DNA from: Candidatus Falkowbacteria bacterium
GTDB taxonomy: Bacteria > Patescibacteriota > Patescibacteriia > Patescibacteriales > UBA12465
Assembly (NCBI GenBank): GCA_037132255.1
Contig: JBAXPN010000001.1
Coordinates: 276,113 to 340,112 of the forward strand
Length of the DNA stretch: 64,000 nt
Reading direction: 5' to 3'
Positions within the stretch are counted from its first letter, which is position 1, and each line of letters begins with the position of its first letter. Position numbers and translations under genes: made by a program. The notes under the pieces are model-generated. The model was not told the origin of the DNA, searched no databases, and worked only from the letters and a program-made list of their open reading frames with translations. Below are positions 3,636 through 57,656 of the stretch, one piece after another.

Positions 3636-3707
3636 AAATTTATTAATTTTTAGCTAATATTGAACAAAATATATTAAAATGCATCATTTGCTCTTATCTA
3701 ACTAATA

Positions 3708-38855: not shown

Positions 38856-38875
38856 AAATACCAAATTTAGCCAAT

Positions 38876-39061
38876 ATGAACAAATTAAGCAACTACATTA
38901 AAGAATCGATTGCCGAGATGAAAAAAGTCACCTGGCCGACTAAAAAAGAGACTCGAAACTATACAATCCTAGTTATTGCTATTAGTATCGGAGTCGCTTT
39001 ATTTTTAGGTCTACTGGACTATTTATTCACTACGGGTTTTCAACTTATTATTAATCGATAA
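38876..39061 (+). CDS. secE: preprotein translocase subunit SecE
   Basis: 61 aa. EMKKVTWPTKKET followed by a single TM. Conserved position upstream of nusG. Confidence 0.9.
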   Translation: MNKLSNYIKESIAEMKKVTWPTKKETRNYTILVIAISIGVALFLGLLDYLFTTGFQLIINR

Positions 39062-56036: not shown

Positions 56037-56627
56037 TTAGAGATTGCTGGTGGCAAATTCCCAATTTAAGATATTTTTTAATATTCCTTCAACGAAATCG
56101 GCTCGACGATTCTGGTAATCCAAATAATAAGCATGTTCCCAAACATCGATTGTGAGAACTGGCTTAAGACCATGGACTATTGGAGTATCGGCGTTAGCAG
56201 TCTTAAAGATTTTTAATATTTCCCCTTCAAGTACTAACCAGGCCCAACCGCTTCCAAACTGCGCCAAGGCAGCTGCTTTTAATTCTGTATAAAAATTTTC
56301 AAGACTTCCGAAAGATTTATTAATTAAGGCTAATAGTTTTTCGCCTGGCTCCGAAGAAACGCCTACCGGACGCAAGCTCTTCCAAAAAAAATCATGATTA
56401 TACATCTGAGCGGCATTATTAAATATTCCCGCGCGACTAACATCGCTTGCAGTATCTAAAATAATATTTTCCAAACTTTTGGCTTCTAAATCAGAGTCCA
56501 GAATCAATTTATTAAGATTATCGACATAGGCCTGATGATGCTTTCCGTAGTGGAAATCGAGTGTTTTTGAAGAAATATATGGTTCAAGCGCATTTTTTTC
56601 AAATGGCAGTAATGATAAAGTAAACAT
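56037..56627 (-). CDS. Fe/Mn superoxide dismutase
   Basis: 196 aa. LPFEKNALEPYIS..LDFHYGKHH and DVWEHAYYLDYQNRR. Confidence 0.95.
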   Translation of the reverse strand: MFTLSLLPFEKNALEPYISSKTLDFHYGKHHQAYVDNLNKLILDSDLEAKSLENIILDTASDVSRAGIFNNAAQMYNHDFFWKSLRPVGVSSEPGEKLLALINKSFGSLENFYTELKAAALAQFGSGWAWLVLEGEILKIFKTANADTPIVHGLKPVLTIDVWEHAYYLDYQNRRADFVEGILKNILNWEFATSNL

Positions 56628-56780
56628 AAATTTATGATTAATATTAATAGATTAATTATAACAAACTTTTGCTGCAGCTACTAATTAATACGTGAATCAA
56701 ATAATATACTTTTTTCTCACAAAATATTAATCTAATATTGGCTAATTTTGATGAAATTTGAGAATAATCGCCTACTACTA

Positions 56781-56809
56781 TTGACAATTACAAATAATAA
56801 TGATAATAT
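56781..56809 (+). promoter_or_regulatory. near-consensus promoter of the candidate ncRNA
   Basis: TTGACA (56781-56786), exactly 17 nt, TAATAT (56804-56809). Confidence 0.6.
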
Positions 56810-56815
56810 ATTAAT

Positions 56816-57073
56816 CCGTTCATTATGAGCAAAAAAAATTGCGGGAAAGAACACGAAATGCGAGCTAGTCGAATAACCAAGCTGCCAATGCCGGTAATCG
56901 TCTTAAACTCTATAGCGCCCAGCGCTGTAATAATTCGTAATATCTTTACCCGAACGATGTGTACTGCCCAGGCAGTGCGCGGCGCAGTGAACTCCGATCA
57001 CTGCTCAATAGATTAACATCTACCGCGGATAACGCATCTTTTTGAGGGGACCACGCGTTCCCTCTCTTTTTTT
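56816..57073 (+). ncRNA. candidate structured non-coding RNA, class not identified
   Basis: GC about 46% (102/220, hand count) in a ~33% GC genome. Bounded by a promoter and a strong terminator. Nested long-range helices 56842-56850/56943-56952 and 56853-56857/56934-56938. Hairpins at 56914-56926, 56961-56978 and 56984-57004. No plus-strand gene lies downstream. Confidence 0.5.
57044..57073 (+). terminator. rho-independent terminator of the candidate ncRNA
   Basis: Stem GAGGGGA (57044-57050) / TTCCCTC (57058-57064), 7-nt loop, T7 run at 57067-57073. No U-run in the minus orientation. Confidence 0.8.
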
Positions 57074-57092
57074 ATCTATATATATGTGGCCA

Positions 57093-57656
57093 TTATATTA
57101 ATTGGCCATTTTTTAATTTAAGTCTTAAAGCACGAAAATCCGGAATGGTATGTGTAACTAGCTTCCAAAAGCTTGCCGAGTGATTAAATTCTTTTAAATG
57201 GCAAAGCTCATGGACAATAACATAATCAGAAACTTCTGGCGGCAAAAATAATAAGCGAAAATTGAAATTTAAATTTCCCTGGCGCGAGCAACTTCCCCAG
57301 CGCGACTTTTGATCACGAATGCTAATTGTCCCGTATTTAAAATTATAAAAGGAATTGAAATATTCCAAACGCTCGATAACAAGTTTTCTCGCTTTTTCAC
57401 GGGCATTAAGGTAATCGCGTCTCGTTAAAAGATTAAGCGGATTAACCGGTGAATTTTTAAAATTATTAATCCTGCTAATAATCCACGCGGATTTTGAAAG
57501 AATAAAATTATCAACTTGTTCCGTTCGAAGATTACGCGGTTGAGTCACAATTAGATCGCCATTACAATAAATCGCCAAACGTAAACGTTTGGCGCGTGGA
57601 CTTATTTTTAGTGTATAAGTTATATTCTGTTCTCCTAATTTTATTTCTTTAACCAT
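57093..57656 (-). CDS. DUF45/YgjP-like (M48-related) zinc metallopeptidase
   Basis: 187 aa. SRWGSCS... and HELCHLKEFNHSASFW (HExxH). Confidence 0.75.
   Translation of the reverse strand: MVKEIKLGEQNITYTLKISPRAKRLRLAIYCNGDLIVTQPRNLRTEQVDNFILSKSAWIISRINNFKNSPVNPLNLLTRRDYLNAREKARKLVIERLEYFNSFYNFKYGTISIRDQKSRWGSCSRQGNLNFNFRLLFLPPEVSDYVIVHELCHLKEFNHSASFWKLVTHTIPDFRALRLKLKNGQLI

What the first reader, a model, noticed from the sequence alone, without database searches (positions are those of the whole stretch)
56781..57073. GC-rich, highly structured ~260-nt orphan transcription unit: candidate novel ncRNA
The unit sits in the 465-nt gap between sod and the DUF45 gene, both on the minus strand.
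- Boundaries: a perfect -35 (TTGACA), 17-nt spacer and TAATAT -10 (56781-56809) precede it. A strong plus-only intrinsic terminator follows (7-bp stem at 57044-57064, then U7).
- Composition: about 46% GC (102/220 counted) in a ~33% GC genome whose intergenic DNA is even more AT-rich. This is the classic signature of structured RNA in AT-rich genomes.
- Structure: I can draw nested long-range helices CGGGAAAGA/UCUUUACCCG (56842-56850 with 56943-56952, one bulge) and ACGAA/UUCGU (56853-56857 with 56934-56938). These enclose a ~75-nt domain containing the hairpin at 56914-56926. Perfect 7-bp hairpins follow at 56961-56978 and 56984-57004. GCAGUG occurs twice, which allows alternative pairing.
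- Class: I could not match it to the tmRNA, RNase P, SRP, 6S or common riboswitch consensus sequences I remember. It cannot be a cis-leader because no plus-strand gene follows.
- Alternative: a 63-codon ORF (56825-57016) spans it. Its GC3 (~48%) and composition are unlike local genes, so I rank a small foreign or RiPP-like peptide as the second hypothesis.
Basis: partly seen in the sequence, partly recalled or inferred. Interest (0 to 1): 0.7.

Follow-up and report, generated by a model that had tools for sequence, protein, structure and literature searches.

The report
New structured small RNA gene
A roughly 258-base stretch between two genes of an uncultured groundwater-type bacterium (Candidatus Falkowbacteria) is a free-standing gene for a folded, non-coding RNA; it matches no described RNA family, is shared by at least eight related species, and its job is still unknown.

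Summary
Window 56781-57073 (+) is a self-contained transcription unit. It has an extended -10 sigma-70 promoter, a ~258-nt GC-rich RNA, and an intrinsic terminator. It lies between sod and a YgjP/DUF45 gene in a Candidatus Falkowbacteria (Patescibacteria) genome.

Eight other species carry a homologous unit at the same site and in the same orientation (215-466 nt). Four syntenic relatives lack it cleanly.

It is not protein-coding:
- The 63-codon ORF has no homologue among 5.8 billion proteins.
- In the closest relative the ORF has a stop at codon 3 and 1-nt indels.
- Substitutions show no codon periodicity (8/9/7).

The fold is conserved with compensatory changes. A helix with a bulged A closes a three-way junction. 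A 7-bp long-range helix closes a variable 3' domain. In the 5' core, 89.9% of cells are paired against 77% in shuffles, and 19 pairs show double changes (0/500 shuffles reach either value).

Rfam 15 and ARAGORN give nothing for the window. Rfam also gives nothing for eight relatives carrying the element.

Function is unresolved. My best guess (inference only) is an abundant trans-acting RNA that works through its folded junction core. An anti-Shine-Dalgarno mechanism looks unlikely because these genomes barely use Shine-Dalgarno sites. It is a new family of a known kind, of moderate interest.

The parts
56733..56749 (.). Conserved near-palindromic motif TAATATTGGCTAATTTT (family consensus TTTAAWATTAGCTAAWT) upstream of the RNA promoter. 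It may be an operator or UP-like element.
   Evidence: The motif is present in all nine element-bearing loci, 16-18 or 36-39 nt upstream of the -35 box. It is absent from the four syntenic loci that lack the RNA. Its function is not tested.
56781..56809 (+). Sigma-70-type promoter: -35 TTGACA (56781-56786), 17-nt spacer, TG (56801-56802), -10 TAATAT (56804-56809).
   Evidence: The scan scores it 10/12 plus TG. All nine homologues carry a TTGACA-17-TA..AT promoter, near-identical in eight, while the flanking spacer diverges.
56816..57073 (+). Predicted RNA of about 258 nt. The 5' end is inferred from the promoter to within about 2 nt; the 3' end is the U-tail of the terminator.
   Evidence: RNAfold gives -80.9 kcal/mol, z = -4.14, specific to this strand. 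Homologues of 215-466 nt were found. There is no Rfam hit.
56818..56830 (+). 5'-terminal hairpin GUUCA-UUA-UGAGC, followed by an A-rich linker (A8 at 56831-56838, then UUGC).
   Evidence: The hairpin is kept with changes in relatives: GUUCA/UGAAC in L022 and GUAC/GUAC in L023 and L026. The linker AAAAUAYU is conserved in all nine.
56843..56951 (+). 5' core domain (P2 domain).
- Closing helix GGGAAAGA (56843-56850) with UCUUU-A-CCC (56943-56951, bulged A 56948).
- Inner helix ACGAA/UUCGU (56853-56857 with 56934-56938).
- Arm P2a (56862-56910, loop UGCCAAU 56883-56889).
- Arm P2b hairpin (56911-56929).
   Evidence: Covariance model R2 finds all nine members and nothing else in 131 kb. Of 31 pairs, 89.9% of cells are paired and 19 pairs show changes on both sides, with 0/500 shuffles reaching either value; slid controls give 36-47%. 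RNAalifold on a plain MAFFT alignment recovers P2 and P2b. P2a is missing in L030 and L060.
56956..57038 (+). 3' domain closed by long-range helix P3: GAUGUGU (56956-56962) with ACGCAUC (57032-57038). It encloses:
- hairpin 56963-56976;
- helix CGCGG/CCGCG (56978-56982 with 57023-57027);
- hairpin 56984-57004 with loop ACUCCGA (56991-56997);
- hairpin 57009-57022.
   Evidence: P3 is 98% paired in eight distinct sequences, and 4 of 7 pairs show compensatory change. RNAalifold predicts it independently. The interior varies from about 50 to about 320 nt among homologues.
57039..57073 (+). U-run (57039-57043), then the intrinsic terminator: GAGGGGAC (57044-57051) with GUUCCCUC (57057-57064), followed by U7 (57067-57073).
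   Evidence: The terminator scan finds it. A G+C-rich hairpin followed by a U-run ends every one of the nine homologues.
56825..57016 (+). 63-codon ORF inside the RNA. It is judged spurious and is not part of the function.
   Evidence: It has no homologue other than itself. It is broken in L022 and absent in the others. GC at codon positions 1/2/3 is flat at 0.45/0.45/0.48, whereas the neighbouring genes show 0.42-0.47/0.29-0.34/0.28-0.35. There is no Pfam hit.

Best explanation
Window 56781-57073 is a free-standing gene for a non-coding, highly structured RNA of about 258 nt. It belongs to a previously undescribed family found in a sub-lineage of Candidatus Falkowbacteria-like Patescibacteria.

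Shown:
- It has its own near-consensus extended -10 promoter and its own intrinsic terminator, and no same-strand gene follows it.
- Eight other species carry a homologue at the same place: divergent from sod and convergent with the YgjP-like gene.
- It does not encode a conserved peptide.
- It keeps a common fold through compensatory substitutions. The elements, in order, are a 5' hairpin, an A-rich linker, helix P2 (with an invariant bulged A) closing a three-way junction, a short purine-rich joiner, long-range helix P3 closing a variable 3' domain, a U-run and the terminator.
- Sequence conservation is concentrated where P2 and P3 meet (AAAAUAYU-GGG...ACCC-RAAMR-GAUG...AUC-U(n)). The peripheral arms expand, shrink or disappear.

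Inferred (about 25-30% confidence in this mechanism): the RNA is made abundantly and acts in trans through its folded junction core, by binding a protein or a small ligand there. It probably does not act through a long antisense seed. The variable arms would be structural decoration.

The RNA is dispensable, since four syntenic relatives have lost it cleanly. It may be co-regulated with the divergent sod gene through the conserved palindromic motif that travels with it.
For: - Transcription unit: promoter and terminator found and conserved in nine loci.
- Strand-specific stability: z = -4.14 on the plus strand against -0.85 on the minus strand.
- Homologues at the syntenic site: L022, L023, L026, L028, L030, L032, L059, L060.
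- Clean absence in L005, L033, L061 and L063, where the spacer is only 58-96 nt.
- Not coding.
- Covariation in the 5' core: 89.9% paired against 77.2% shuffled, and 19 pairs with double changes against 10.4; 0/500 shuffles reach either value, and slid controls give 36-47%.
- P3: 98% paired, with 4 of 7 pairs compensatory.
- An alignment not fitted to the structure gives the same helices, with 11 compensatory pairs.
- Model R2, trained on six members, detects the three left out (E = 1e-7, 8e-5, 5e-3) and nothing else in 131 kb.
- Not a known family: Rfam 15 gives no hit, ARAGORN gives none, and blastn finds nothing in phages or plasmids.
- Conservation focused on the junction.
- The same promoter consensus drives tRNA genes in unrelated AT-rich bacteria, which fits a strongly expressed stable RNA.
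Against: - No expression data were available, so the 5' end, the abundance and even transcription itself are inferred from sequence.
- Only nine members from one gene neighbourhood are known, and they were found through synteny. The distribution elsewhere is therefore unknown, and the association with sod is subject to ascertainment bias.
- The covariation alignment was fitted to the model structure, and that structure came from the window sequence. Both inflate pairing, although the shuffle counts of double changes and the unfitted alignment agree with it.
- Nothing identifies a partner protein or ligand. The 'acts through its junction core' step rests only on where conservation lies.
- Clean loss in close relatives (L061 is about 80% identical in the YgjP protein to carriers) shows the function is dispensable or niche.
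Confidence: 0.8

Rival explanations
1. Sensor RNA with gated read-through. The three-way-junction core would be an aptamer-like sensor. Its state would decide whether the terminator at 57044-57073 works. Read-through would then produce an antisense transcript across the convergent YgjP/dNK/RlmN-like operon, as with riboswitch-controlled antisense or non-coding RNAs such as AspocR or EutX/Rli55.
For: - Conservation is concentrated at a multi-helix junction.
- The terminator lies 20 nt from the stop codon of a convergent gene in the window.
- L023, L059 and L032 carry three mutually exclusive pairing partners (CCUGAC, GCCAGG, GCCUGG) that could form a conformational switch.
- A C-rich loop (CUCC) is partly complementary to the G-rich 5' arm of the terminator in most members.
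Against: - I found no anti-terminator that is clearly exclusive with the terminator.
- The complementarity between the CUCC loop and the terminator arm is only 3-5 bp and is expected for any G-rich arm.
- In the window a second plus-strand hairpin with a U6 run (57087-57114) follows as a back-up stop.
- No Rfam riboswitch model matches.
- The switch-like triplet exists in only 3 of 9 members.
Confidence: 0.1
2. Base-pairing regulatory sRNA. The apical C-rich loop (ACUCCGA here, CCUCCGA in relatives) and/or the U-rich tract would pair with mRNAs, as the C-rich loops of RsaE/RoxS pair with Shine-Dalgarno regions. The neighbouring sod would be a candidate target.
For: - A hairpin presenting CUCC or CCUCC in its loop is found in 7-8 of 9 members, with stem covariation (GCAGUGA/UCACUGC, GCGGUGA/UCACCGC, ACAGA/UCUGU).
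- The 3' end has the pattern U-run, hairpin, U-tail, which is typical of chaperone-bound sRNAs.
- The RNA is transcribed divergently from a stress gene, as OxyS is from oxyR (own knowledge).
Against: - Only 1 of 60 ORFs in the window has a Shine-Dalgarno-like motif upstream, fewer than in random windows (6.7%). There is therefore essentially nothing for an anti-SD mimic to bind.
- Duplex energies with the sod translation-initiation region are no better than with shuffled controls in any of the nine species (z from -1.0 to +2.3; a crude test).
- L030 lacks the CUCC loop.
- L030 keeps the RNA although its sod is truncated to 135 aa.
- A size of 215-466 nt and a covarying multi-domain fold are atypical for seed-type sRNAs.
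Confidence: 0.1
3. Small protein gene. The 63-codon ORF 56825-57016 would encode a peptide (foreign, RiPP-like or a type I toxin).
For: The ORF exists. One automatic annotation calls it as a gene (L002; P0001). It contains a moderately hydrophobic stretch.
Against: - It has no homologue among 5.8 billion proteins and no Pfam hit.
- The closest relative has a stop at codon 3 and frameshifting indels, and substitutions run 8/9/7 by codon position.
- No ORF is shared across the nine members.
- GC is flat across codon positions.
- The ATG lies inside the 5' hairpin, about 9 nt from the predicted start.
Confidence: 0.02
4. A housekeeping RNA (6S, RNase P, SRP or tmRNA) too diverged for the Rfam models.
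For: CPR bacteria often carry divergent versions of universal RNAs (own knowledge). The promoter is strong. The variable peripheral expansions resemble those of RNase P or tmRNA.
Against: - No hit appears even at E up to 10 on the element, or at E up to 1 on eight relatives carrying it.
- ARAGORN finds no tmRNA.
- There is no long 5'/3' closing stem or central bubble as in 6S.
- There is no GGAAAGUCC / ACAGAA core as in RNase P.
- The gene is deleted cleanly in four close relatives, which is hard to reconcile with an essential RNA unless it has moved.
Confidence: 0.03
5. Non-functional DNA: a decaying gene remnant or a small mobile insertion that happens to fold.
For: Presence is patchy among relatives (9 of 13 syntenic loci). 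GC content differs from the surroundings.
Against: - The promoter, terminator and helices are maintained by compensatory change across species whose YgjP proteins are only 64-84% identical.
- There is a single copy in the window and none elsewhere in 131 kb of related loci.
- It always sits at the same site and in the same orientation.
- I saw no terminal repeats or target duplications.
Confidence: 0.03

Closest known systems
Orphan structured bacterial ncRNAs found by comparative genomics (for example raiA, and the larger OLE, ROOL and GOLLD RNAs). Comparison from my own knowledge of the Breaker and Weinberg surveys.
   Same: It is intergenic and GC-rich in an AT-rich genome. It has a multi-helix fold supported by covariation, with conserved junction nucleotides and variable peripheral arms. 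It has no obvious cis target, a patchy distribution and an unknown function.
   Different: There is no sequence or structure match to any of those families in Rfam 15. It is smaller than OLE, ROOL or GOLLD. So far it is restricted to one Patescibacteria sub-lineage and one genomic site.
6S RNA (ssrS)
   Same: It is a free-standing, strongly promoted RNA of about 200 nt that is non-essential.
   Different: 6S is a rod with a long 5'/3' closing stem and a central bubble. This RNA consists of two side-by-side domains, each closed by its own helix, and its ends do not pair. The Rfam 6S models do not match.
C-rich-loop sRNAs of Gram-positive bacteria (RsaE/RoxS)
   Same: It has a hairpin loop presenting a CUCC/CCUCC motif and a Rho-independent terminator. 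It lies next to a redox or oxidative-stress gene.
   Different: Those sRNAs are about 100 nt and bind Shine-Dalgarno regions. This RNA is 215-466 nt with a complex covarying core, and this genome almost lacks Shine-Dalgarno sites (1 of 60 ORFs). There is no Rfam match.
Riboswitch-controlled non-coding or antisense RNAs (EutX/Rli55, AspocR, SreA)
   Same: A structured 5' domain is followed by a terminator, with no downstream same-strand ORF. It is convergent with another operon.
   Different: No known aptamer class matches. No anti-terminator was identified. Ligand dependence is untested.
OxyS-type arrangement (an sRNA divergent from a stress gene)
   Same: It is transcribed divergently from an oxidative-stress gene, with a conserved palindromic motif in the shared upstream region.
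   Different: OxyS is 109 nt, depends on Hfq and is divergent from its own regulator, oxyR. Here the neighbour is sod itself. There is no sequence relationship, and no complementarity to the sod leader was detected.

Membership tests
Free-standing structured ncRNA gene (generic) | Own promoter and own terminator, with no same-strand ORF served | tested here: met
   Promoter and terminator were found and are conserved in nine loci. The gene after the terminator is on the opposite strand in all loci.
Free-standing structured ncRNA gene (generic) | Secondary structure conserved through compensatory substitutions | tested here: met
   19 of 31 core pairs and 4 of 7 P3 pairs change on both sides, and the shuffle and slide controls are far lower.
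Free-standing structured ncRNA gene (generic) | A discrete transcript is actually made | not testable with these tools
   No transcriptome data are accessible.
Protein-coding small ORF / RiPP precursor / type I toxin | ORF conserved in homologues, with codon-periodic substitution | tested here: not met
   no homologue, a stop at codon 3 in L022, five 1-nt indels, and substitutions 8/9/7.
Cis-regulatory leader (riboswitch, T-box, ribosomal-protein leader) | Lies upstream of a same-strand gene that it controls | tested here: not met
   No plus-strand gene follows in the window or in any of the eight homologous loci.
Cis-regulatory leader (riboswitch, T-box, ribosomal-protein leader) | Matches a known aptamer or leader covariance model | tested here: not met
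   Rfam 15 gives no hit with E up to 10 other than chance matches to terminator hairpins, and none in 11 loci with E up to 1.
6S RNA | Rod-like fold: long closing stem formed by the 5' and 3' ends, large central bubble, apical stem | tested here: not met
   MFE and consensus folds show two independent domains closed by P2 and P3, with no conserved long closing stem formed by the 5' and 3' ends (only, in the window MFE, an A-run/U-tail pairing). No 6S model hit.
6S RNA | Binds the RNA polymerase holoenzyme and templates product RNAs | not testable with these tools
   This needs biochemistry.
RNase P RNA | Conserved P4 core (CR-I GGAAAGUCC, CR-IV/V ACAGAA...) and a match to an RNase P model | tested here: not met
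   No Rfam hit. The motifs are absent from the sequence, and the GGGRRRGA strand covaries as an ordinary helix.
RNase P RNA | Universally retained (essential) | tested here: inconclusive
   It is absent from the syntenic site in four relatives, but their whole genomes could not be searched.
tmRNA | tRNA-like domain plus tag reading frame | tested here: not met
   ARAGORN finds no tmRNA in the window. No Rfam hit.
SRP RNA | Domain IV motif, or a match to an SRP model | tested here: not met
   No Rfam hit.
Anti-Shine-Dalgarno C-rich-loop sRNA (RsaE/RoxS-like) | Exposed C-rich motif in loops | tested here: met
   A CUCC/CCUCC motif sits in an apical loop in 7-8 of 9 members.
Anti-Shine-Dalgarno C-rich-loop sRNA (RsaE/RoxS-like) | Targets are G-rich Shine-Dalgarno regions of mRNAs | tested here: not met
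   Only 1 of 60 ORFs in the window has an SD-like motif at -20 to -4. There is no excess complementarity to the sod initiation region.
Mobile element / MITE | Multiple dispersed copies, terminal inverted repeats, target-site duplication | tested here: not met
   There is a single copy in 64 kb by nhmmer, blastn and CM search. It always lies at the same site and orientation. No flanking repeats were seen.

The most novel reading that the evidence does not exclude
The conserved junction where P2 and P3 meet could be a binding pocket. On that reading this is a new class of free-standing sensor or catalytic RNA in CPR bacteria. It might be a riboswitch-like RNA that senses a redox- or metal-related signal and acts in trans or by gated antisense read-through, co-regulated with superoxide dismutase through the palindromic operator that always accompanies it.
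Probability: 0.1. Interest if true: 0.75.

Novelty: new member of a known kind. Interest (0 to 1): 0.45.

Why it matters
Patescibacteria (the candidate phyla radiation) make up a large share of bacterial diversity. They have tiny genomes, and almost nothing is known about their regulatory RNAs. A strongly promoted, covariation-supported RNA that has been kept in genomes this reduced, and that elaborates its arms from 215 to 466 nt, is probably doing something useful.

It also corrects an annotation error. Gene callers currently label parts of this RNA as hypothetical proteins of 50-63 aa.

The covariance model built here gives a direct route to mapping the family across CPR genomes and metatranscriptomes. 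The practical impact is limited by the narrow known distribution, by the clean losses in close relatives, and by the fact that the hosts are uncultured.

Tried and rejected
1. Rfam. A gathering-score scan of the whole window, a permissive scan of 56600-57150 and a scan of 11 related loci gave only chance hits to terminator hairpins (STnc290, Histone3, ncr1175; all E of 0.1 or more and far below gathering score).
2. ARAGORN found no tRNA or tmRNA in the window.
3. Peptide hypothesis. The protein search found only the query itself, there was no Pfam hit, and no ORF is shared among members.
4. GTDB genome scan with the YgjP protein. Only one close relative (L005) came back and it lacks the element, and nhmmer found no copy in those loci.
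5. Metagenome scan with the promoter pattern. This was a poor choice of pattern. It is a generic strong promoter, so it returned only three members I already had, plus tRNA and unrelated promoters.
6. Viral-contig scan with a core motif: 0 hits.
7. blastn against phages and plasmids: no match.
8. Anti-Shine-Dalgarno idea for the CUCC loop. It is weakened because this genome almost lacks SD motifs.
9. Direct pairing with the sod leader. There was no signal above shuffles (the first attempt, timed out). RNAduplex allows very long loops, so this is a weak test.
10. K-turn reading of GGGGAAGAAC (it resembles Kt-7). Rejected because those nucleotides covary as a regular helix.
11. Structure-aware MAFFT (Q-INS-i) was not installed. 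Plain MAFFT misaligned the two subgroups by one column, so I used a two-step covariance-model alignment instead.
12. Literature searches for CPR/Patescibacteria structured RNAs found nothing describing this element.
13. A P1 helix between the 5' A-run and the U-run after P3 is plausible. It cannot be tested, because both strands are homopolymeric.
Full report
**What is in the sequence.**
- Promoter: TTGACA at 56781-56786, a 17-nt spacer, then TAATAT at 56804-56809, preceded by TG at 56801-56802. This is an extended -10 promoter and the best-scoring site in the local scan.
- Terminator: a G+C-rich hairpin at 57044-57064 followed by U7 at 57067-57073, which works on the plus strand only.
- Composition: the segment between promoter and terminator is 46.9% GC. 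The spacer on its left is 21.6% and the window overall is 37.0%.
- Stability: as RNA, the plus strand folds at -80.9 kcal/mol. That is 4.1 standard deviations better than dinucleotide shuffles, and none of 200 shuffles is as good. The minus strand gives z = -0.85.
- Neighbours: an Fe/Mn superoxide dismutase gene (56037-56627) and a YgjP-like/DUF45 metallopeptidase gene (57093-57656), both on the minus strand. The unit is therefore divergent from sod and convergent with the YgjP gene, and it has no plus-strand gene to serve.

**Source organism and relatives.**
The YgjP protein is identical to one annotated from a Candidatus Falkowbacteria metagenome-assembled genome. I used its homologues (64-84% identical) to fetch syntenic loci.
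- Eight further species have a 380-695-nt spacer between the YgjP gene and sod: L022, L023, L026, L028, L030, L032, L059 and L060. Each contains a TTGACA-17-TA..AT promoter (near-identical in all but L026), a related RNA of 215-466 nt in the same orientation, and a terminator.
- Four syntenic relatives (L005, L033, L061, L063) have spacers of only 58-96 nt and no trace of the element.
- One of these, L061, sits inside a clade of carriers: its protein P0021 is 78-81% identical to P0005 and P0010. The gene has therefore been lost more than once and is dispensable.

**Not a protein gene.**
- The 63-codon ORF (56825-57016) has no relative among 5.8 billion proteins other than its own copy, and no Pfam match.
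- In the closest relative, L022, the same ATG is followed by AAC TAA.
- The alignment of the two sequences has five single-base indels, and substitutions fall 8/9/7 on the three codon positions.
- No reading frame is shared among the nine members.
- GC is flat across the ORF's codon positions (0.45/0.45/0.48), unlike the four neighbouring genes.

**Conserved fold.** All members share one plan:
- a short 5' hairpin;
- an A-rich linker (AAAAUAYU);
- helix P2 (GGGRRRGA with UCYYY-A-CCC, always with a bulged A), which closes a three-way junction bearing an inner helix;
- a variable arm P2a, which has loop CUGCCAAU in five members, a different form in two, and is absent in two;
- a hairpin P2b;
- a 4-5-nt purine-rich joiner;
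- helix P3 (GAUGYRY with RYRYAUC), which closes a 3' domain whose interior ranges from about 50 to about 320 nt;
- a U-run;
- the terminator.

**Testing the fold.**
1. I built a covariance model from the window and L022 alone, using the window's predicted fold. It recovered L023, L059, L028 and L032.
2. A second model, built from those six, found all nine members. These included three it had not seen (E = 1e-7, 8e-5, 5e-3). It found nothing else in 131 kb, which included the whole window and the four loci that lack the element.
3. On the resulting alignment, 89.9% of cells pair, against 77.2% in shuffles (0/500 reach the observed value).
4. On the same alignment, 19 of 31 pairs change on both sides, against 10.4 in shuffles (0/500).
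5. Sliding the 3' partners by 1-3 columns drops pairing to 36-47%.
6. P3, tested on the strands anchored by GAUG and the U-run, is 98% paired, with compensatory change at 4 of 7 positions.
7. The alignment in steps 3-5 was fitted to the model, so I also ran RNAalifold on a plain MAFFT alignment of five full-length members. It independently predicts P2, P2b, P3 and the terminator, with 11 compensatory pairs.

**Comparison with known RNAs.**
- Rfam 15 gives no match at gathering score anywhere in the window.
- It gives only sub-threshold chance hits to the terminator hairpins at E up to 10.
- It gives nothing at E up to 1 in eleven related loci.
- ARAGORN finds no tmRNA.
- The fold has no long closing stem formed by the 5' and 3' ends and no central bubble as in 6S RNA, and no RNase P core motifs.
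- blastn finds nothing in the phage or plasmid collections, and a motif scan of viral contigs found nothing.
- Three literature searches found no description of it.
I therefore treat it as an undescribed family.

**What it might do.**
The shown facts are these: it is a non-coding, structured, independently transcribed unit, dispensable, and always found beside sod in the loci sampled. Everything beyond that is inference.
- Conservation is concentrated where P2 and P3 meet, while the peripheral arms vary or vanish. That pattern is typical of RNAs that work through a folded core by binding a protein or ligand.
- The promoter is a near-perfect extended -10 type. A pattern scan shows the same consensus in front of tRNA genes in other AT-rich bacteria, which suggests high expression.
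- I considered a base-pairing mechanism through the apical CUCC/CCUCC loop, which is present in 7-8 of 9 members. Only 1 of 60 ORFs in the window has a Shine-Dalgarno-like motif, so there is little for an anti-SD mimic to bind.
- Duplex energies with the sod initiation region are no better than with shuffles in any species (a crude test).
- A gated-terminator (sensor) model remains possible but has no positive evidence beyond a possible three-way alternative pairing in three members.
- L030 keeps the RNA although its sod is truncated, which argues against a function tied exclusively to sod.

**Verdict.**
This is a new family of a familiar kind of element: a promoter-to-terminator structured ncRNA gene. 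Its function is unknown.

Confidence that it is a genuine structured ncRNA gene of an undescribed family is about 0.8-0.9. Confidence in the proposed mode of action is about 0.25. Interest is moderate. It is a clean, covariation-supported RNA in a poorly explored phylum, but it is narrow in known distribution, dispensable, and hosted by uncultured organisms.

Noticed in passing
window 56733-56749; same motif in L022, L023, L026, L028, L030, L032, L059, L060: A near-palindromic motif (consensus TTTAAWATTAGCTAAWT; a perfect 16-nt palindrome AAAATTAGCTAATTTT in L022) lies upstream of the RNA promoter in all nine carriers. It falls into two spacing classes, 16-18 and 36-39 nt from the -35 box, which differ by about two helical turns. 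It is absent from the four loci without the RNA. It may be a transcription-factor operator shared with the divergent sod gene. Two other loose matches in the window (3648-3659 and 38865-38876) are within chance expectation.
   Followed up: partly
whole window (60 crude ORF calls): Only 1 of 60 ORFs of at least 80 aa has a GGAG/GAGG/AGGA/GGGG motif at -20 to -4, compared with 6.7% of random 17-nt windows. This lineage appears to initiate translation essentially without Shine-Dalgarno sites.
   Followed up: partly
window 57087-57114 (+): A second plus-strand hairpin with a U6 run (TGGCCA-TTATATTAAT-TGGCCA-TTTTTT) straddles the stop codon of the YgjP gene. It could act as a back-up terminator for the RNA. 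It accounts for the weak Rfam chance hits to Histone3 and ncr1175.
   Followed up: no
window 56655-56663 (minus strand); all 13 syntenic loci: The motif TGTTATAAT (an extended -10) lies about 30 nt upstream of the sod ATG. It is conserved in nearly all the syntenic loci, including ones without the RNA. It is probably the sod core promoter and would give a short leader with no Shine-Dalgarno site. A second conserved block, GCTAATTAATACG (56681-56693), lies just beyond it.
   Followed up: no
L030 2452-2859 and L031 (same species): The sod gene is called as only 135 aa (N-terminal domain only) and is followed by a gap of about 200 nt. It is probably a pseudogene, yet the minimal 215-nt version of the RNA is retained next to it.
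   Followed up: no
L023, L059, L032 (3' domain of the RNA): Three segments, CCUGAC, GCCAGG and GCCUGG, can pair in two mutually exclusive ways (first with second, or second with third). The two arrangements flank a large inserted sub-domain. This could be a conformational switch, and it is seen only in the three longest members.
   Followed up: no
window 56825-57016; L023 3474-3647; L032 2407-2559: Automatic gene callers annotate spurious hypothetical proteins of 50-63 aa on the RNA strand in several assemblies. Each is different, and none is conserved.
   Followed up: yes
whole window 1-64000: Rfam at gathering score and ARAGORN find no tRNA, rRNA or any other RNA family in 64 kb.
   Followed up: no
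L035, L036, L047, L048 (unrelated metagenome contigs): The promoter pattern TATTGACAAT-N5-ANAANAATGNTAATATA sits directly upstream of tRNA genes in unrelated AT-rich bacteria. It also sits upstream of a repeated outer-membrane-like gene in the BNJS/BNJT/BNJU/BNJV assemblies. It is therefore a generic strong promoter, not a family marker.
   Followed up: partly
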